Shown piece by piece: positions 1 to 51,691 of a stretch of 51,691 nucleotides of DNA. This DNA is from a phage, in sequence record OZ346160.1; one strand, given 5' to 3'. The notes under the pieces are model-generated. The model searched no databases. It worked only from the letters and a program-made list of their open reading frames with translations, and was not told where the DNA came from. Within the stretch, counting starts at the first letter, position 1. Each line of letters starts with the position of its first letter. A program made the translations under genes and the position numbers.

Positions 1-1569
1 ATGATCATATGGGAAGATTTGACGGCGGCGCAAAAGCGAGCCATTAAAGAAATCAGTGAGCATTCATTCGAAAAGATGATCAGAATCTGGTTCCAATTAT
101 TGCAGGGGCAGAAATTCCAGAGCAACTGGCATTTTAGCTTATTGTGCAGTGAGGTAGAGAAGATCATCAATGGAGAGTCGCAGAATGTGATTTTCAACAT
201 TACGCCAGGTAGCGGCAAGACTGAGATTTTCTCGATCCACATGTCACCCTACGCGTCATTGAAAAGCCGGAAAGTGAGAAACCTTAACCTTTCGTTTAGT
301 GATGGCCTTGTCCAGCAAAACAGCAACCGGATAAAGGAGATTATCGGTTCTCCTGAGTGGCAAGAGCTATGGCCTGGAAAACTGGCAAAGGCGAGCGCTA
401 AAGATCTGATAGTCACCGAAGGCGGCAAGGTTAAATTGCAAGTTAACTCACGTTCTATTGGCGGCCAGGTAACAGGTTTGCGTGGCGGCTATATGGATGA
501 TGGTTTTACTGGTATGCTGGTTCTTGACGATCCAGACAAGCCGGATGATATGCTTTCTAAGGTCAAGCGCGAGGCTATTCACATGCGGTTAAAAAACACA
601 GTGCGATCGCGTCGAATGAAAGACACCACGCCAATTGTTATGGTGCAACAGCGACTACACGTTAATGATTCCACCTGGTTCATGCTTAATGGCGGGATGG
701 GTGGTATTGAGTTTAAAGTCGTGAGCATTCCGGCGCTGGTTACGAAAGAATACCGCGAAACGCTTCCTGATTGGTTGAAGCCTGAATTTGATCGTGATGT
801 GCTGTCAAGTAAGCCAGTGATGATAGATGGCGTCGCTCATTATTCATTTTGGCCTGCGAAGGAAAGCGCGGAGGAGTTGCTTGCATTGCGCAATGCAGAT
901 CCTTACACGTTTGCCAGTCAATACCAACAGCAACCAATCGCGCTTGGCGGGAACGTGTTTAAAACAGAGTGGTTCCAGTATTACGGCAGCGGCGAAAAGT
1001 GCGCACTACCAAAACCGGATCGCTTTGAATACACATTTATTACTGGAGATACCGCGCAGAAGGCCGGAGAGCTTAACGACTATTCAGTTTTTTGTTATTG
1101 GGGGATGTATAAGAATCGCGTTTACTTCATTGATGGCATTCGCGGAAAGTGGGAAGCGCCGGATCTTGAATTAAATTTTATTGCCTTCGTTAACCAGTGC
1201 TGGAAGCGCAATAAGGAGTGTGGCAGCTTGCGACGTATCCACATTGAGGATAAGGCCAGCGGCACTGGTTTGATTCAGGGGGCCAAAAAGAAGATCCCGA
1301 TTGATATAAATCCCGTTCAGCGAAGCAATGACAAGGTAACGCGAGCAATGGACGCCGCGCCAGTGATGAGGGCCGGACGTGTGGCGCTGCCAGAAAATCA
1401 CCCCATGCTGCCTGAGATACTGGCAGAGGTTGCAGCATTCACTTTTGATGATTCTCATCCCCATGATGATATTGTCGATAATATAGTTGATGCTGTTAAC
1501 GTCGAAATGAACTTGGCAGATGATCCGGTGGCAAGGATGAAAAAGCTGGCTGGTCTACGCAATAAATAG
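1..1569 (+). CDS. terL: terminase large subunit
   Basis: 522-aa ORF beginning at base 1, directly upstream of portal gene; size and position fit a packaging ATPase/nuclease; family call from recall, no search. Confidence 0.75.
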   Translation: MIIWEDLTAAQKRAIKEISEHSFEKMIRIWFQLLQGQKFQSNWHFSLLCSEVEKIINGESQNVIFNITPGSGKTEIFSIHMSPYASLKSRKVRNLNLSFSDGLVQQNSNRIKEIIGSPEWQELWPGKLAKASAKDLIVTEGGKVKLQVNSRSIGGQVTGLRGGYMDDGFTGMLVLDDPDKPDDMLSKVKREAIHMRLKNTVRSRRMKDTTPIVMVQQRLHVNDSTWFMLNGGMGGIEFKVVSIPALVTKEYRETLPDWLKPEFDRDVLSSKPVMIDGVAHYSFWPAKESAEELLALRNADPYTFASQYQQQPIALGGNVFKTEWFQYYGSGEKCALPKPDRFEYTFITGDTAQKAGELNDYSVFCYWGMYKNRVYFIDGIRGKWEAPDLELNFIAFVNQCWKRNKECGSLRRIHIEDKASGTGLIQGAKKKIPIDINPVQRSNDKVTRAMDAAPVMRAGRVALPENHPMLPEILAEVAAFTFDDSHPHDDIVDNIVDAVNVEMNLADDPVARMKKLAGLRNK

Positions 1570-1595
1570 CACTAATTGCTAAAAAGTTATATAAT
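1565..1595 (+). promoter_or_regulatory. conserved intergenic cassette copy (variant AATAGCACTAATTGCTAAAAAG + TATAAT)
   Basis: Motif overlaps terL stop TAG; TATAAT at 1590..1595; followed by hairpin and T-run. Confidence 0.5.
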
Positions 1596-1596
1596 C

Positions 1597-1625
1597 AAGG
1601 CTGGATTTTTCCAGCCTTTTTTATT
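1597..1625 (+). terminator. rho-independent terminator/attenuator between terL and portal
   Basis: AAGGCTGG-attttt-CCAGCCTT followed by T-run. Confidence 0.55.
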
Positions 1626-1639
1626 ATGGAGATTTGACG

Positions 1640-2932
1640 ATGAGTGAAAAAACAAGGCTAGTTAAGGCCGATGGATACAACGAGATTTTCAAGGGCAGCA
1701 AGGGCAATGGGCGTGTGGAGTTGCCTTTCTTTATGCAAGGGTTCGAATACACCACGCACGCTGATTTTTACATTCGCGACGGCCTAGCAAAACGAATCAT
1801 CGACGTTGTTCCAGAAGAAATGGTGACGCCTGGATTTAATATTGACGGCGTGGAAGACGAGGAAAGTTTTAGATCTTTGTGGGATGAGAAGCGACTAAAC
1901 GATAAAATCATTGATGCGCTTTGCTGGTCGCGTCTTTTTGGTGGCGCTGCAATCGTGGCAATCGTTCAGGATGGCAGGGCATTAAAGTCACCTGTAGCGC
2001 CTGGTGCAATCCTTGAAGATGTTCGCGTTTACGATCGCTTTCAGGTTCGCGTAGAAAAGCGAGAAACCAATCCGCGCAAGGTGCGATATGGTGAGCCATT
2101 GATTTACACCATTACACCTGGTGCTGACCTGCCAGAATACCAGGTTCACTATTCGCGAGTCTGTATTATCGACGGTGAGCGGCTACCAAATCAGCGACGT
2201 CAGTCAAATGATGGTTGGGGTGAGTCGATCCTGAATAAGCGACTTGTTGAGGCCATTTGTGATTATAACTACTGCGAAAACTTAGCAACTCAATTGTTGC
2301 GACGTAAGCAACAGGCGGTATGGAAAGCTAAAGGTCTTGCTGATCTTTGTGATGATGATGATGGTGTTAACGCCGCACGTTTGCGCCTTGCTCAAGTTGA
2401 TGATGAGGGTGGAGTTGGCCGTGCGATCGGCATTGATGCGGAAGATGAGGAATATGATGTTTTAAATTCTGATATTTCCGGCGTCGATTCATTTCTGGAA
2501 AAGAAGATGGATCGCATTGTATCTCTTTCCGGTATCCATGAAATCATCCTCAAAAACAAGAACGTTGGCGGTGTTAGCGCGAGCCAAAACACGGCGCTTG
2601 AAACCTTCTACAAGCTGATCGACAGAAAGCGAAAGGAAGAATACAAACCAATCCTTGAATTTCTGATCCCGTTCCTGATTCAAGAACAAGAATGGAGTAT
2701 TCAGTTTGCGCCGTTAAGCGTTCCAAGCGAAAAGGACCAGGCCGAGATCTTGAACAAGAATATTGATTCTTTGAGCAAGGCTATTGACGGTCAATTCATG
2801 GATACAGAGGAGGCGCGCGACACATTGCGAGCCATTGCGCCTAACGTTAAACTAAAAGACGGCAATAACATTAAATTACCTGAGCAGGACGTAGAGCCGG
2901 AGCCAGGAGCAACCGAGGGTAGCAATCAATGA
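1640..2932 (+). CDS. portal protein
   Basis: 430-aa ORF after terL; GGAG RBS about 8 nt upstream of ATG at 1640 (track start 1634 is a TTG); stop overlaps next start (ATGA). Confidence 0.75.
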   Translation: MSEKTRLVKADGYNEIFKGSKGNGRVELPFFMQGFEYTTHADFYIRDGLAKRIIDVVPEEMVTPGFNIDGVEDEESFRSLWDEKRLNDKIIDALCWSRLFGGAAIVAIVQDGRALKSPVAPGAILEDVRVYDRFQVRVEKRETNPRKVRYGEPLIYTITPGADLPEYQVHYSRVCIIDGERLPNQRRQSNDGWGESILNKRLVEAICDYNYCENLATQLLRRKQQAVWKAKGLADLCDDDDGVNAARLRLAQVDDEGGVGRAIGIDAEDEEYDVLNSDISGVDSFLEKKMDRIVSLSGIHEIILKNKNVGGVSASQNTALETFYKLIDRKRKEEYKPILEFLIPFLIQEQEWSIQFAPLSVPSEKDQAEILNKNIDSLSKAIDGQFMDTEEARDTLRAIAPNVKLKDGNNIKLPEQDVEPEPGATEGSNQ

Positions 2933-35509: not shown

Positions 35510-37086
35510 CCCAGCAGTATTGGATTGACAAAAATAACACCATTAATAACACAAACATAATTTCTTTCTTCCAGCATTGGCAGCAAGTGCCCTTCTATCC
35601 TCTTCATTACTCCAGCCTGACCAACGAAAGGTTTTACCTTTCTCGCTGATTCGTACAGGGCGCGGATATTCAGAATCCCTTTATTAGCCTTGCCGTGTCT
35701 AGTGATCAATTCAATCAATTTACCCATTTCAGCATCATCACCAGCATAACCAGAAGCATTGGCGGCGCTAATGTATGTTTTGCTCAATTCCTGAAACATG
35801 ATCAGCGCCTCTTGCATTGTTTCCACGTCGATCTCTTTCGACTTCTGCGGGTATCCGGCAGGATTAAACCAGTTGCGGATAACATGCAGGACGGAAGCAA
35901 GCCTGATCACCTGTTTATCCATTTTACCCAGCGCACCGCGTAACATTGTATGAGAATACTTTCCGCCGTCTGCAAGATGCGGTTCCATATCCTGGCGAGC
36001 AATGTTGAGCACTCGCATAGCTGAACGGCTTATTTTCAGCGATATATTTGATTCGCTCATGATGTTATGCACCAATTGATAATATTGGGCCTTCAATTCA
36101 GGATCCACTGCCTCATAGGTAGAATCACCATTTTCATCAATGAATGAGCGACGGCCTAAGAATGATTCCTCACGGACCAACAAAAAGCGCTCACTCACAC
36201 CGATACCGCGCGATCCAGCGTCCATGATTCCGCTTATCGTTTCATCCTGGGCTATAACGCTCATACATCCAAGTGCGCGAAAACTCATGTTATTGTCAGC
36301 ATTAGCACGGGCAATTGATACGTGACCATTATCCCACGCCTTAAGCACTAGCTCACTGTTAGTCTTCCTTTCGCTATTGGCATAGGTCAAGCCTAACAGA
36401 CTGTTAATACTTGTTGCTTCGTCAGATATTACGGCAAAGTTACCTTGCTTGTTGTTGATTTTTGCCAAGCCTTCTGGAGTTGTATCTGAAACAGGGAAAG
36501 TTATATCACACATCTTTTCCAGCTTCTCCTCCAGATCCTCTTTTTCCTGGTATAGAGATTCCATATCAGCGCCTGATCTTTCGCTTTTCATCTCCTTTGC
36601 AAGACCTGCCAACTTTGCCTGTATTTTCTTTCTTTCCTTGCGGCGTTGCTCGTTGATCTTCTCAACTTCCGCAATCATCGGAGCAATAGCCATACTATTG
36701 ATCGCAGATTTACCAGTTGACGGCGGCTGGCTTGTAACGACGTAAAGCGCAGTCGGCTGATCGGTCCCGTGATAGTCAACCGTAAAGCGTCCAAGCATAG
36801 CGGCAGAAATGCAGCCGATAAAGTGCATGTAAGCCGATGATTCAGGGAATTGAACGGATCGCGCAATACTTCGTGATAACTTTCCGACAACATCAATATC
36901 ATTACCAAGAGAAATGACGGGGTAGCGATCGTGACCGCTATTTACATCCTTTACGTCGCCCCAAAAGCTGGACGACTGGCGATAGCCGTTAGCCTGAATT
37001 GATACGCGAACTGGCGAAAGGTTCTGGCTTTCAGCCATAGCGATTATTTGCTGTGGAGTTAATTTGTTCGTTTCTAATGAAAACAT
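35506..37086 (-). CDS. P-loop NTPase of unknown function (DUF3987-like)
   Basis: 526 aa; Walker A-like QPPSTGKS; AGGAG RBS; own cassette upstream. Confidence 0.55.
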   Translation of the reverse strand: MFSLETNKLTPQQIIAMAESQNLSPVRVSIQANGYRQSSSFWGDVKDVNSGHDRYPVISLGNDIDVVGKLSRSIARSVQFPESSAYMHFIGCISAAMLGRFTVDYHGTDQPTALYVVTSQPPSTGKSAINSMAIAPMIAEVEKINEQRRKERKKIQAKLAGLAKEMKSERSGADMESLYQEKEDLEEKLEKMCDITFPVSDTTPEGLAKINNKQGNFAVISDEATSINSLLGLTYANSERKTNSELVLKAWDNGHVSIARANADNNMSFRALGCMSVIAQDETISGIMDAGSRGIGVSERFLLVREESFLGRRSFIDENGDSTYEAVDPELKAQYYQLVHNIMSESNISLKISRSAMRVLNIARQDMEPHLADGGKYSHTMLRGALGKMDKQVIRLASVLHVIRNWFNPAGYPQKSKEIDVETMQEALIMFQELSKTYISAANASGYAGDDAEMGKLIELITRHGKANKGILNIRALYESARKVKPFVGQAGVMKRIEGHLLPMLEERNYVCVINGVIFVNPILLG

Positions 37087-41754: not shown

Positions 41755-41789
41755 TTACTATCTCCTGAGCGGTTCGTTTTGATGGGATA

Positions 41790-41834
41790 ACTATACCAGG
41801 TTATCCCGATCAGCTTTTAACAAAAAGTGCTATT
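41790..41834 (-). promoter_or_regulatory. cassette copy
   Basis: Consensus motif overlapping stop; hairpin GGGATAAC..GTTATCCC; TATAGT at 40-45. Confidence 0.55.
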
Positions 41835-42136
41835 TATTGTTTTGCGTGGCGCTCAATGTAAGCGCGGATAGTTTCAGCGGTGTCTTTCGCAGATCCAAAC
41901 GTGCCCTTTACATGGCGAGCGTCGCGGTAAGCCTGGAAGAATTTACGCGCGATATTTGCAAACATTGCACCAGTAACGCGAGCGTCGCCAAAATTTGTTT
42001 CAATGGCATTGCTGATGCCGTCCTGGAATTCATGCTCAGTCATGAACAGTTCAGCCATTTCTGCGGTTTCGAACAGGTCAGCCAGTGCTGCCATATTCTC
42101 GTGGTCTTTAGCGGTGAACAGGTTCATGTTAATCAT
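41834..42136 (-). CDS. hypothetical protein
   Basis: 100-aa ORF; first gene of - strand array, downstream of cassette 42177..42221. Confidence 0.5.
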   Translation of the reverse strand: MINMNLFTAKDHENMAALADLFETAEMAELFMTEHEFQDGISNAIETNFGDARVTGAMFANIARKFFQAYRDARHVKGTFGSAKDTAETIRAYIERHAKQ

Positions 42137-42176
42137 TGTTTGGTCCTCAGTAAGTGCGGTTCGTTTCGATGTGTGT

Positions 42177-42221
42177 AATGTACCCGATCAGGTGGCCTGA
42201 GTTTTAACAAAAAGTGCTATT
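42177..42221 (-). promoter_or_regulatory. cassette copy (first of - strand array)
   Basis: Consensus motif; TACATT at 40-45. Confidence 0.5.
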
Positions 42222-42251
42222 TGACGGTTATCGCCAGGATTGCGATCGAAA

Positions 42252-42339
42252 TAATCAAAAGCAATCATTCGTAATCAAATCACGTCAAAATGATGATTGC
42301 CTTTGCAAATTTGATGAGAAAAGTAATCACGCTTAATCA
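42252..42339. repeat. TAATCA iteron array with 10-bp periodicity
   Basis: TAATCA/CAATCA at 42252, 42262, 42272, inverted TGATTG at 42294, TAATCA at 42324 and 42334. Confidence 0.45.
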
Positions 42340-42499
42340 TTGGTTGCAGGGGAGATAGTGAAACCCTCCCCTCTTGCCTCACTTTTCCGCCTGGCTGTCA
42401 GTGGTTGTTATGTTACGTTCCCGCGTGTTCTTTTGTTGACCTTCCGCAAAATACGATAACAAAAAATAACAAACAATACCTATATAATACATTGAAAAA

Positions 42500-42770
42500 T
42501 AAGGATTATTTATTTATATGTATCTATATATTCTCTTTTGTTATCTTGGTTATTGTGGTATTTGGTGGGGGTATATAGTTTTTGTGTATCTATATGTGTG
42601 TATGGGTATGTAGGGGCATATATATCTATATGGCACTTTCCGCGAGAAAACTTCGATAACAAGCAATGATAACATTGATTTATAAGGAAAAATAACGCCC
42701 ATATTGTTATTGTGCCACCATATAAAATTGATAAAACACGCGGGAACAAGAAAAAACAGTTGACACATTA
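42500..42770. repeat. AT/TG-rich regulatory region, paralogue B
   Basis: Diverged direct repeat of 21490..21700; internal direct repeat TTCCGC..GATAACAA (about 42450..42680). Confidence 0.5.
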
Positions 42771-42788
42771 AATAGCATTATTGATAAT
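42760..42788 (+). promoter_or_regulatory. sigma70 promoter (start of + strand small-gene array)
   Basis: TTGACA (42760..42765) - 17 nt - GATAAT (42783..42788); AGGAGG RBS and ATG 42817 follow. Confidence 0.6.
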
Positions 42789-42816
42789 GCCCACACCTAA
42801 CAACCAGGAGGAAGAA

Positions 42817-43281
42817 ATGAGCGAGCAATCATTCACTGACACGCTGCGCCGTGCCGCTATTATGCTGGCTAATGGCGAGGAAGAGACGATCAAGATTCCT
42901 GACGCGTATTTGCAGGTCCACATGTTCGGCAAGAAGTCGGCAAGCAATCCGGCGGCCTACATTCGCCAGATCATGAGTCGAGTGCCAGAAGTCGCCGAGC
43001 GGGGGCGCGTATCCGTTACCCGTGGCGTTTACGGGCCGGAAGATGAAAACTTCGGTAGCACTTTCTACGAGGTAAGGATTGTTGAAGGCCGTCGCAAGGT
43101 TTACAACAAAGAGGCACTGGAAAGGGCAGTACGCCAGGCTAAGCGCAAGGTTGCAGAGGCGATCATTGATATGTCACCCAACCTGGCAAACTATGCGCCG
43201 GAAGAGTATGAAACATTATCAAAGGCCGTCGCTGACTTTCACGCGATGATCAAAAAAACTTTCCTGGAGGATGAGCAATGA
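42817..43281 (+). CDS. hypothetical protein
   Basis: Start MSEQSF with AGGAGG RBS; first gene after consensus sigma70 promoter. Confidence 0.5.
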   Translation: MSEQSFTDTLRRAAIMLANGEEETIKIPDAYLQVHMFGKKSASNPAAYIRQIMSRVPEVAERGRVSVTRGVYGPEDENFGSTFYEVRIVEGRRKVYNKEALERAVRQAKRKVAEAIIDMSPNLANYAPEEYETLSKAVADFHAMIKKTFLEDEQ

Positions 43282-43550
43282 AAAAGGCGTTAATCGGCGT
43301 TTTGGCGGCAATGGCATTCCTGACCGGATGCAAAGAAGATGGCGCGCATGTTGGCAATGTGCAGATGGCTAACCCTGGCGATGACTACAGCGTAAGGGAG
43401 CTATTCACCGCCGATGGTTGCACTGTTTACCGATTCTATGACGGTCGCACTGTTTACTTCACCAACTGCAAGGGCACTACTAGCTGGGAAGTGTCGAAAA
43501 GCAATGGCAAAGGCACGAAGACAGAACATATGACCGTCGAGACAAAATAG
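43278..43550 (+). CDS. small lipoprotein
   Basis: 90 aa; signal peptide with lipobox FLTGC; coupled (ATGA) to upstream gene. Confidence 0.55.
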   Translation: MKKALIGVLAAMAFLTGCKEDGAHVGNVQMANPGDDYSVRELFTADGCTVYRFYDGRTVYFTNCKGTTSWEVSKSNGKGTKTEHMTVETK

Positions 43551-43590
43551 CACTTTTTGTTAAAACGCCAGGCGCAAAGCCTGGCATAAT
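43546..43590 (+). promoter_or_regulatory. cassette copy
   Basis: Consensus motif overlapping stop; perfect hairpin GCCAGGC-gcaaa-GCCTGGC; CATAAT 43585..43590. Confidence 0.55.
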
Positions 43591-51164: not shown

Positions 51165-51691
51165 ATGGCTAAAAACGTTGAGCCTGCTGTAAAGGCATTA
51201 AATTTCAAAGAGTTATATAATAAAACCTATGGCGATATTGTTACGCTAAACAACCGCCACAAGTACACGCCGGAACAGGTTTTTGATATGGCGATCCGCT
51301 ATTTTACGTGGGCCGAAGAGAATCACATCCAGGCGGCTGAAACAGCTTCCTTTCAGGGTGACGTGTACGAGAGCAGAGTTTACAAGCCTCGCGTTTTCAC
51401 GGTTAACGGATTCAGCTTGTATCTCGGCGTTACTGAGGCGGCTGTAAGCAAATGGCGTAAAGAGCCTGGATTCTGCGATGTGATGGAGTTTGTTGATAAA
51501 GTAATTTACGAGCAAAAATTCCAGCTTGCGGCAAATAACATGATTAACGCTGGATTTATCGGTAAAGAGATCGGAGTAGAGAAGCCAGCAACAGTGAGCG
51601 TTGAAGCGAGCGCGGCAGCTAATGCAAGCATTGACGCAGTAACTGCCGATGAGGTGAAAGAGGCTGTGATTGATATTCTGGAGCAACTTTA
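51165..51691 (+). CDS. terS: terminase small subunit (3'-partial in linear window; completes with base 1)
   Basis: ATG with AAGGAGG RBS; not in ORF track because no stop inside window; final TA plus base 1 A gives TAA overlapping terL ATG; precedes terL. Confidence 0.6.
   Translation, partial: MAKNVEPAVKALNFKELYNKTYGDIVTLNNRHKYTPEQVFDMAIRYFTWAEENHIQAAETASFQGDVYESRVYKPRVFTVNGFSLYLGVTEAAVSKWRKEPGFCDVMEFVDKVIYEQKFQLAANNMINAGFIGKEIGVEKPATVSVEASAAANASIDAVTADEVKEAVIDILEQL

What the first reader, a model, noticed from the sequence alone, without database searches (positions are those of the whole stretch)
42245..42375. Iteron-like TAATCA array with 10-bp phasing next to a GC-rich hairpin: candidate origin or operator
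Six TAATCA/CAATCA/TGATTG hexamers occur at 42252, 42262, 42272, 42294 (inverted), 42324 and 42334, on the same helical face. They are followed by a 7-bp-stem hairpin (AGGGGAG..CTCCCCT, about 42338..42370) and the AT-rich region. This architecture is typical of iteron-type origins or cooperative regulator binding sites, and no gene is predicted here.
Basis: seen in the sequence. Interest (0 to 1): 0.6.

Follow-up and report, generated by a model that had tools for sequence, protein, structure and literature searches.

The report
Likely packaging-start (pac) site of T1-like phage
The TAATCA repeat cluster is real and non-random, but it most likely marks where this T1-like phage's terminase starts cutting and packaging DNA (the pac site), not a replication origin or operator; that is useful but not surprising.

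Summary
The window is a complete T1-like coliphage genome (Drexlerviridae, Warwickvirus type). The finding lies in the 680-bp divergent intergenic region between the last leftward gene and the first rightward gene.

All six hexamers are exactly where stated. Six YAATCA in 90 bp is the densest such cluster in the genome, and 400 simulated genomes never exceeded four. The hairpin exists but is unremarkable: its fold z-score is -0.96, and its 3' arm mutates in relatives without compensation.

The array belongs to a 183-bp block (42227-42409) that is 93-98% identical in 61 phage records. Those records are the ones with a near-identical small terminase, although both flanks are mosaic. Other Drexlerviridae genera have a TGATT-rich cluster, a G-rich element and an AT-rich zone at the same place.

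Independent termini fall in or just right of this cluster:
- T1 base 1 and TLS base 1 (pac mapped by restriction digests).
- The PhageTerm peak of MSK and base 1 of SU57.
- Records XY3 and PHB17, which both open at ...|GTGAAACC (window 42358), and haarsle, 9 nt upstream.

Best reading: a pac region, with the hexamers as terminase recognition repeats and the cut in the G-rich element. An origin or operator is not excluded, but no test supported either. This is a new member of a known kind, of modest interest.

The parts
42227..42409 (.). Conserved 'A block': hexamer array, G-rich element and the CTTGCC...TTTTCCGCCTGGC tail. This is the proposed pac region.
   Evidence: It is 93-98% identical in 61 phage records, although both flanks diverge. 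The named records match those whose TerS is at least 98% identical.
42252..42277 (-). Left hexamer group: TAATCA 42252, CAATCA 42262, TAATCA 42272, spaced 10 bp. They read TGATTR on the minus strand.
   Evidence: In relatives, site 2 is TAATCA, and site 3 is TAATCG in tonnikala.
42294..42299 (+). TGATTG in the orientation that predominates in most other genera examined (T1, TLS-like, MSK, JohannLBurckhardt, RCIP0096). It overlaps a near-consensus IHF core on the minus strand (AATCATCATTTTG, 42286-42298, one mismatch).
42324..42339 (-). Right hexamer group: TAATCA 42324 and 42334, spaced 10 bp, ending 18 bp before the inferred cut.
42347..42373 (+). G-rich element CAGGGGAGATAGTGAAACCCTCCCCTC, which contains the 7-bp-stem hairpin. 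The inferred first packaging cut lies at about 42349-42358.
   Evidence: Records XY3 and PHB17 open at ...ATA/ATC|GTGAAACC, which is window 42358. haarsle opens 9 nt upstream at |GAGGGGATAG. Homologous elements occur in T1, Hanrivervirus and Changchunvirus. The hairpin itself is not significant or conserved.
42202..42220 (-). Outermost leftward copy of the T1-like 21-nt direct repeat (ATAGCACTTTTTGTTAAAA), a promoter-associated element that bounds the block on the left.
   Evidence: There are 24 copies in the window against 2.7 expected. The element was described for TLS in PMC11447400.
42410..42757 (.). 'B region': an AT-rich core (15% GC at 42460-42519) flanked by six RATAACA/TGTTATY sites. 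It is a separate module, possibly the encapsidated half of pac or an origin.
   Evidence: It varies with the DUF7174 allele rather than with the A block.
42760..42788 (+). Strong sigma-70 promoter (TTGACA, 17 nt, GATAAT) for the first rightward gene (ATG at 42817).
51165..51689 (+). Small terminase subunit gene, the proposed trans-acting reader of the array. Its stop codon spans the window junction.
   Evidence: PF16677 GP3_package at 3.8e-11 and phrog_606 'terminase small subunit' at 2e-53.

Best explanation
The array is the recognition half of the phage's pac site, where headful DNA packaging starts.

Proposed mechanism: the small terminase (a P22 gp3-like protein encoded about 9 kb downstream) binds the phased TGATTR/TAATCA hexamers on concatemeric DNA. 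The A-tract phasing probably helps by curving the DNA. The bound complex positions the large terminase to make the first cut 10-20 bp to the right, inside the G-rich element at about 42349-42358. Packaging then proceeds rightward, so the hexamers lie on the non-encapsidated side of the first cut, like pacL of SPP1.

Shown here:
- the cluster is non-random;
- it lies in a conserved block;
- the block is inherited with the genus core, including TerS;
- termini of relatives map here.

Inferred:
- that the hexamers are what TerS reads;
- the exact cut position in this phage;
- the role of DNA curvature.
For: 1. Position. The window is a Warwickvirus-type Drexlerviridae genome. The array lies in the divergent intergenic region. 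The SU57 paper places the T1 pac site in the corresponding UTR at the genome start (PMC7718038). The T1 record annotates 1..2800 as the terminal repeat.

2. Termini of relatives fall in or just right of the homologous cluster.
- T1 base 1 lies inside its TGATTG cluster.
- The TLS pac was mapped by restriction digests, and the TLS record opens inside its cluster.
- The MSK PhageTerm peak at 36,862 (p = 1.6e-9, PMC8421802) lies about 25 nt past its cluster, 222 nt from the leftward gene. Window 42358 is the same distance from its leftward gene.
- SU57 base 1, set from PhageTerm and a coverage step, lies about 20 nt from the MSK position.
- XY3 (Warwickvirus) and PHB17 (Changchunvirus) both open at |GTGAAACC.
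- haarsle (Hanrivervirus) opens 9 nt upstream.

3. The same architecture and motif recur across the genera examined. TGATT occurs 24 times against 3.1 expected, and TGATTG 13 times against 0.75, in the 170 bp after the leftward repeat element in 7 representative phages (per phage).

4. Modularity. The A block is 95-98% identical within Warwickvirus whatever the type of the AT-rich region (69% or 97-99% identical). It is 92-96% identical within Hanrivervirus. It occurs in 61 records, and 61 records have TerS at least 95% identical, with a gap down to 72% or less. The 60 records listed for TerS (all at least 98% identical) are the same named phages. The adjacent DUF7174 gene is at least 95% identical in only 16 records. 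The left neighbour gene matched in only 5 of the records listed.

5. No sigma-70-type promoter, terminator or known RNA family was found inside 42227-42757, which suits a cis-acting DNA site.
Against: - No reads or virion-end data exist for this phage, so the cut site is transferred from relatives.
- How the XY3, PHB17 and haarsle records were opened is undocumented. XY3 and PHB17 could share a convention rather than a measurement.
- The T1 and TLS starts have low resolution. The final TLS base was chosen by resemblance to the P22 pac site.
- Co-inheritance with TerS cannot be separated from co-inheritance with any other genus-core gene, such as the primase or helicase.
- Within the 61-record family the hexamers are no better conserved than the spacers: 2 of 6 variable columns fall in the 36 of 101 hexamer positions.
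- TGATT enrichment is weak in Hanrivervirus and in the Klebsiella phage (3 sites, P = 0.055 each).
- The 10-bp phasing is seen only in the Warwickvirus block.
- Known gp3-family TerS proteins (P22, Sf6) read a single site of about 22 bp inside their own gene, not a repeat array.
Confidence: 0.55

Rival explanations
1. The array is an upstream regulatory region for the divergent early promoters. It would serve as binding sites for a phage or host regulator, or as curved UP-like DNA acting on the outermost leftward repeat-element promoter at 42202-42220.
For: The array starts 32 bp upstream of that promoter element. It shows A-tract periodicity of 10.2 bp. It contains a 20-nt imperfect inverted repeat, 42249-42268 with 42293-42312. 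It has an IHF-like core at 42286-42298. The TLS authors also raise enhancer or operator roles for elements near these repeats.
Against: There are 24 copies of the repeat element in the genome, and only this one has the array. No regulator gene co-varies with the block, and both neighbouring genes are mosaic while the block is fixed. This reading does not explain why genome termini of six relatives map here.
Confidence: 0.18
2. The array is the replication origin, or part of it. The hexamers would be initiator binding sites, and the AT-rich stretch at 42460-42520 would be the unwinding element.
For: Phased short repeats lie next to a 15% GC stretch. A second repeat family, RATAACA with six sites, flanks the AT-rich core. 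The origin of T1-like phages is unidentified; the TLS paper reports no iterons anywhere in that genome, so this large conserved non-coding zone is a natural candidate.
Against: The repeat unit is only 6 bp and there is no tandem array. DnaA boxes are not above chance (1 with one mismatch against 1.24 expected, and it lies in the leader). No Rep-, O- or DnaA-like gene is adjacent. The hexamer block and the AT-rich region reassort independently, which is unexpected for a single origin. The termini data are explained by pac, not by an origin.
Confidence: 0.12
3. The array has no sequence-specific function. The cluster would be a by-product of local composition, or a relic of duplications in a non-coding recombination hot spot.
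For: The hexamers are not more conserved than the spacers. YAATCA is somewhat over-represented genome-wide, 118 against 81 expected. The region is AT-rich, 30-37% GC.
Against: The cluster is the genome maximum and was never approached in 400 simulations. The whole block is held at 93-98% identity across 61 mosaic genomes. The same 5-mer is enriched at the homologous site in genera whose sequences no longer align.
Confidence: 0.1
4. The block encodes a small RNA or micro-protein, with the hairpin as its terminator.
For: A few GenBank records call ORFs of 29-48 codons on the minus strand here. A hairpin is present.
Against: No promoter or terminator consensus was found on either strand. There is no U-tract after the stem. 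No Rfam family scores above noise. No frame is open for more than about 35 codons. The hairpin arm mutates without compensation. Most annotators call nothing here.
Confidence: 0.05

Closest known systems
pac site of coliphage T1 and TLS (Drexlerviridae)
   Same: It occupies the same genomic position: the divergent intergenic region upstream of the DUF7174-type first gene. It shares the family-wide architecture and a G-rich element homologous to T1 GGGGGGATCTAGTGTTACC. The packaging mode of the family is the same, pac-initiated headful packaging.
   Different: The sequence is not alignable by BLAST outside the genus. The hexamers are mostly in the opposite orientation (TAATCA on the + strand) and are 10-bp phased, which T1 and TLS do not show. 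The papers read here do not define recognition elements for T1 or TLS pac at the sequence level. Proposals quoted there are 'ATATA repeats' for T1 and AGATTT for TLS, by analogy with P22.
Bacillus phage SPP1 pac (pacL-pacC-pacR) - from my own knowledge, not tested here
   Same: It works alike in principle. Short repeated TerS boxes lie on intrinsically bent DNA on the non-encapsidated side, the cut is made a short distance away, and a second region lies on the encapsidated side.
   Different: SPP1 TerS (G1P) belongs to a different family, and its pac site lies at or in the terS gene. Here pac lies about 9 kb upstream of a gp3-like terS.
Phage P1 pac (TGATCA/G hexamers flanking the cut, IHF site between) - from my own knowledge, not tested here
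   Same: Both have two groups of phased hexamers. The T1-like core TGATTR differs from the P1 hexamer TGATCR by one base. An IHF-like core lies between the groups. Drexlerviridae also encode a Dam methylase, and relatives carry GATC sites in their clusters.
   Different: The window hexamers contain no GATC, and only one GATC lies in the block, so Dam control of the P1 type cannot act on them. P1 PacA is unrelated to gp3-like TerS. The inferred cut lies to one side of the array, not between the groups.
P22/Sf6 pac (gp3-family TerS)
   Same: The trans factor belongs to the same protein family, PF16677. P22 gp3 is about 30% identical over residues 35-140.
   Different: From my own knowledge, P22 pac is a single asymmetric element of about 22 bp inside gene 3. 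Here the candidate is a multi-hexamer array in a distant intergenic region.
Iteron-type plasmid or lambdoid origins
   Same: Both have helically phased direct repeats beside an AT-rich stretch.
   Different: There are no 17-22-bp iterons, no adjacent initiator gene and no DnaA boxes above chance.

Membership tests
pac site of a headful-packaging phage | It coincides with the physical end of the first chromosome packaged in a series. | tested here: inconclusive
   No reads are available for this phage. In relatives, termini or record openings map in or up to 25 bp right of the homologous cluster: T1, TLS, MSK (PhageTerm), SU57, XY3, PHB17 and haarsle. The basis of three of these openings is undocumented.
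pac site of a headful-packaging phage | The phage uses pac-initiated headful packaging and encodes a small terminase. | tested here: met
   TerS (PF16677, phrog_606) lies at 51165-51689, followed by a 522-aa ORF at the window start, presumably the large terminase. Pac-initiated headful packaging is reported for T1, TLS, Rtp and MSK.
pac site of a headful-packaging phage | The site co-varies with the specificity of the small terminase. | tested here: inconclusive
   There is perfect co-occurrence: 61 records carry the block and 61 have TerS at least 95% identical, and the 60 records listed for TerS are the same named phages. The flanks are mosaic. This cannot be separated from genus membership.
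pac site of a headful-packaging phage | It is sufficient in cis (a plasmid carrying it is packaged or transduced) and is bound by TerS. | not testable with these tools
   This needs a transduction assay and EMSA or footprinting.
Iteron-type replication origin | Three or more direct repeats of about 17-22 bp with conserved flanks. | tested here: not met
   Only a 6-bp core recurs. TRF finds no array. The best extended pair is 24 nt at 71% identity (family D7).
Iteron-type replication origin | An adjacent or overlapping initiator (Rep/O) gene. | tested here: not met
   The neighbours are DUF7174, DUF4884 and two PHROG families of unknown function. The block does not co-vary with them.
Iteron-type replication origin | DnaA boxes and/or an AT-rich unwinding element nearby. 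| tested here: inconclusive
   An AT-rich stretch is present (15% GC, 42460-42519). DnaA boxes are not above chance.
Iteron-type replication origin | Replication initiates here. | not testable with these tools
   This needs marker-frequency analysis or an origin-function assay.
Operator array of a transcription regulator | The sites overlap or closely flank a promoter, and a cognate regulator is encoded. | tested here: inconclusive
   The array lies 32-137 bp upstream of the leftward repeat-element promoter. No regulator was identified, and the neighbouring genes do not co-vary.
Structured RNA or intrinsic terminator (the hairpin) | A stable stem maintained by compensatory change, followed by a U-tract. 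| tested here: not met
   The fold z-score is -0.96. No terminator was called. Positions 42366, 42367 and 42369 vary while the 5' arm is invariant. No Rfam family scores above noise.

The most novel reading that the evidence does not exclude
The 680-bp divergent zone could be a combined pac-plus-origin control region. The hexamer block would be read by terminase. The adjacent AT-rich, RATAACA-flanked module would be the long-sought replication origin of T1-like phages, read by the co-varying DUF7174 protein. Alternatively, the hexamer array itself could be the initiator-binding part of that origin.
Probability: 0.15. Interest if true: 0.6.

Novelty: new member of a known kind. Interest (0 to 1): 0.35.

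Why it matters
T1-like phages are common laboratory and fermentation contaminants, generalized transducers and phage-therapy candidates. Their pac site has been placed only roughly and has no agreed sequence definition, and their origin is unknown.

A defined recognition block and cut position would help in three ways:
- genomes of this family could be opened consistently;
- transduction hot spots could be predicted;
- packaging signals for phage-based delivery vectors could be designed or removed.

The modular split may also matter. The A block follows the terminase and genus core, while the AT-rich B region follows the DUF7174 allele. This gives a concrete handle for separating packaging and replication signals experimentally.

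Tried and rejected
- Rfam scan at a permissive E-value returned only noise, such as snoRNA and Plasmodium RNase P hits at E of 0.2 or more.
- The sigma-70 promoter and terminator scan found nothing inside the block.
- Tandem Repeats Finder found no array at the hexamers.
- The hairpin is not above shuffles as a DNA fold and shows no compensatory changes. I rejected it as a structural element.
- Footprinting within the 61-record family is uninformative. Only 6 variable columns lie in the array, and 2 of them are in hexamers.
- DnaA-box and IHF consensus scans gave no enrichment. There is one IHF-like site with one mismatch inside the array.
- GATC/Dam control of the P1 type is rejected for this phage, which has only one GATC in the block. 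T1, TLS and Hanrivervirus have 2-3 each.
- A search for the block in 5,426 complete E. coli genomes, looking for satellites or islands that mimic pac, found no match.
- An IMG/VR scan for the block's right half returned two contigs, neither informative about ends.
- Literature searches for a sequence-level T1 pac site or origin found only indirect statements. The Rtp paper was not held. One search on phage names returned irrelevant papers.
- The small minus-strand ORFs annotated in a few records are judged spurious. They are short, and most records annotate nothing there.

Full report
**Context**

Megablast of 41800-43300 against phage records hits 84 records. The best are Escherichia phages of the genus Warwickvirus (Drexlerviridae, Tempevirinae), at 98% identity over the right 76% of the query. 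The window is a whole genome opened at the first ATG of a 522-aa ORF, presumably the large terminase. The small terminase gene (51165-51689) ends with a stop codon that spans the junction. It matches PF16677 GP3_package and phrog_606.

The finding lies in the 680-bp gap between the last leftward gene (41834-42136, minus strand) and the first rightward gene (ATG at 42817, DUF7174).

**Check of the observation**

All six hexamers are at the stated coordinates. YAATCA occurs 118 times in the genome on both strands. Six within 90 bp is the genome maximum, and 400 first-order Markov genomes gave maxima of 2-4. The 5-mer AATCA/TGATT also peaks here, with 7 in 100 bp.

Spacings are 10, 10, 52 and 10 bp. 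AAA tracts across 42227-42346 show a 10.2-bp periodicity that 5 of 1000 shuffles reach. The 'same helical face' description is therefore fair.

Only a 6-bp core recurs, and Tandem Repeats Finder reports nothing here. These are not iterons in the usual sense.

The hairpin (42348-42354 paired with 42366-42372) is present. As DNA it folds at -6.1 kcal/mol with z = -0.96.

**The conserved block**

BLAST shows that 42227-42409 is 93-98% identical in 61 records. The left flank (gene 41834-42136) matched in only 5 of the listed records. The right flank exists in two forms only about 69% identical to each other.

In a 7-genome alignment, 6 columns vary within 42245-42345, and 2 of them lie inside hexamers. 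Site 2 is TAATCA in the relatives, and site 3 is TAATCG in tonnikala. The hexamers are therefore no better conserved than the spacers at this depth.

Three of the 16 variable columns of the block fall in the 3' arm of the hairpin, while the 5' arm is invariant. The pairing is not being maintained.

**What surrounds it**

The known T1-like 21-nt direct repeat (aaATAGCACnnnTTGnTAAAA, described for TLS in PMC11447400) occurs 24 times in the window against 2.7 expected. The outermost leftward copy is at 42202-42220. A strong sigma-70 promoter is at 42760-42788.

Between them I found no consensus promoter, terminator or Rfam family. No frame is open for more than about 35 codons. The ORFs of 29-48 codons annotated in a few records are absent from most. 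The zone therefore looks transcriptionally silent, which suits a cis-acting DNA site.

**Comparison across the family**

The DUF7174 gene marks the homologous position throughout Drexlerviridae. I extracted the upstream intergenic region from these phages:
- T1;
- TLS, Mishu and SorkZaugg;
- MSK and SU57;
- damhaus, aalborv, herni and haarsle;
- JohannLBurckhardt;
- RCIP0096;
- PHB17.

Most of them share the following order, left to right; not every element is recognizable in every phage:
1. The leftward direct-repeat element.
2. A zone of 100-150 bp rich in TGATT(G/A)/TAATCA.
3. A purine- or G-rich element. This is GGGGAGATAGTGAAACC in the window, GGAGGGGATAGAGAAAC in Hanrivervirus, GAGGGGAATCGTGAAACC in PHB17 and GGGGGGATCTAGTGTTACC in T1.
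4. TGTTAT/GTTCC repeats.
5. An ATATA-rich core.
6. More ATAACA-type repeats.
7. A sigma-70 promoter.

In the 170 bp after the repeat element of seven representative phages, TGATT occurs 24 times against 3.1 expected and TGATTG 13 times against 0.75. Per phage the count is 3-7 against 0.85 expected. It is strongest in the window and weakest (3 sites) in Hanrivervirus and the Klebsiella phage.

**Where genome ends map**

The SU57 paper places the T1 pac site in the corresponding UTR at the genome start (PMC7718038). The individual termini are as follows.
- T1: the record annotates 1..2800 as the terminal repeat, and base 1 lies inside the TGATTG cluster.
- TLS: pac was mapped by restriction digests, and the record opens inside its cluster (...GATGATTGATGTGTG|AGATTTTGTGATTG...).
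- MSK: PhageTerm put the terminus at 36,862 with p = 1.6e-9 (PMC8421802). That is about 25 nt past its cluster and 222 nt from the leftward gene. Window 42358 is also 222 nt from its leftward gene.
- SU57: base 1 was set from PhageTerm and an abrupt coverage change. It aligns about 20 nt from the MSK position.
- XY3 (Warwickvirus): the record ends ...GCAGGGGAGATA and begins GTGAAACC....
- PHB17 (Changchunvirus): the record ends ...GAGGGGAATC and begins GTGAAACC.... This is the same homologous base as in XY3, equal to window 42358.
- haarsle (Hanrivervirus): the record opens 9 nt upstream, at |GAGGGGATAG.

How the last three records were opened is not documented. Even so, three records from three genera break within 10 nt of one another in a homologous element, which is hard to ascribe to chance.

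**Modularity**

Pairwise identities show two independent modules. The A block (from the repeat element to CCTGGC) is 95-98% identical within Warwickvirus and 92-96% within Hanrivervirus, whichever right-hand type a phage carries. The AT-rich B region follows the DUF7174 allele.

TerS is at least 95% identical in exactly 61 records and then drops to 72% or less. The 60 listed records are the same named phages that carry the A block. DUF7174 is at least 95% identical in only 16 records.

The block is therefore part of the genus core together with TerS, and it is independent of both neighbouring genes. This fits a terminase site but does not exclude another core factor.

**Interpretation**

The best-supported reading is that 42227-42409 is the pac region. 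The hexamers, probably on curved DNA, would be the recognition repeats for the gp3-like TerS. The first cut would fall in the G-rich element at about 42349-42358, and packaging would proceed rightward. The array would then sit on the non-encapsidated side, as pacL does in SPP1.

The position, the conservation pattern and the termini of relatives are shown here. TerS binding, the exact cut site and the role of bending are inferred. I give this reading 0.55.

Rivals:
- An upstream regulatory or curved-DNA element for the early promoters (0.18).
- A replication origin (0.12).
- No specific function (0.10).
- A small RNA or micro-ORF (0.05).

The origin reading lacks long iterons, DnaA boxes above chance (1 against 1.24 expected) and an initiator gene. 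It cannot be dismissed, because the papers I found identify no origin for T1-like phages and the adjacent AT-rich region has its own repeat family.

**Comparison with known systems**

Functionally the arrangement resembles SPP1 pacL/pacC and P1 pac. The P1 hexamer TGATCR differs from TGATTR by one base. These two comparisons rest on my own knowledge and were not tested here.

The window hexamers lack GATC, so Dam control of the P1 type cannot apply to them. The TerS family is that of P22 and Sf6, whose pac is a single site inside the terS gene.

Relative to T1 and TLS, this is the homologous site in another genus with a diverged sequence. The papers available to me define no recognition elements for the family.

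**Verdict**

The array is a real, non-random and probably functional feature. Its most likely role is packaging initiation rather than replication or transcription control. It is a new member of a known kind, of modest interest (0.35).

Noticed in passing
window 42410-42757: There is a second repeat family in the same intergenic zone. Six RATAACA/TGTTATY sites lie within 257 bp (about 0.2 expected), flanking a 15% GC core with TATCTATAT repeats. Hanrivervirus has four TGTTAT copies spaced 10-11 bp at the same place. This region co-varies with the DUF7174 allele, not with the hexamer block. It is a candidate origin or the encapsidated half of pac.
   Followed up: partly
window, 24 sites, e.g. 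42202-42220 (-), 41815-41833 (-), 43547-43565 (+): The T1-like 21-nt direct repeat ATAGCACTTTTTGTTAAAA occurs 24 times against 2.7 expected, most copies oriented with the surrounding genes. It was described for TLS, and its function is still unsettled (promoter, enhancer or stoperator).
   Followed up: partly
window 41769-41838 and 42156-42225: A repeat-plus-leader segment of about 70 bp is duplicated 387 bp apart, once in front of each of two leftward genes. The gene between them (41834-42136, phrog_12926) matched in only 5 of the listed records (SLUR29, tunus, XY3). It looks like a cassette inserted together with its own promoter element.
   Followed up: no
window 42286-42298 (-): AATCATCATTTTG matches the IHF core consensus WATCAANNNNTTR with one mismatch. 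It lies between the two hexamer groups and overlaps the inverted hexamer. There are 81 such near-matches genome-wide, so this is weak on its own.
   Followed up: partly
window 51690-51691 and base 1: The small terminase stop codon TAA spans the end and start of the window. The window is therefore a circular permutation opened at the ATG of the 522-aa ORF, not at a physical end.
   Followed up: yes
L009 101-120 (T1 record bases 101-120) and L010 1437-1456: T1 has a second leftward copy of the direct repeat to the right of its TGATTG cluster and G-rich element. In T1 the pac cluster may therefore be transcribed leftward, unlike in the window, which has only one copy. A perfect hairpin (ACCAGG ttcg CCTGGT) lies between them.
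   Followed up: no
L001 6120-6337, L002 6120-6337, L003 1188-1464, L006 1320-1466 (equivalent to window about 42275-42490): Several GenBank records annotate minus-strand 'hypothetical proteins' of 29-48 codons across the pac block. They are probably gene-caller artefacts.
   Followed up: partly
(hit tables): Some 20 records named 'Campylobacter phage' (host given as C. jejuni) are T1-like Drexlerviridae with coliphage-type sequences. One 'Microviridae sp.' record (MG883728) matches 54 nt of the PHB17 AT-rich region at 85% identity. These may be host or label errors, or chimeric assemblies.
   Followed up: no
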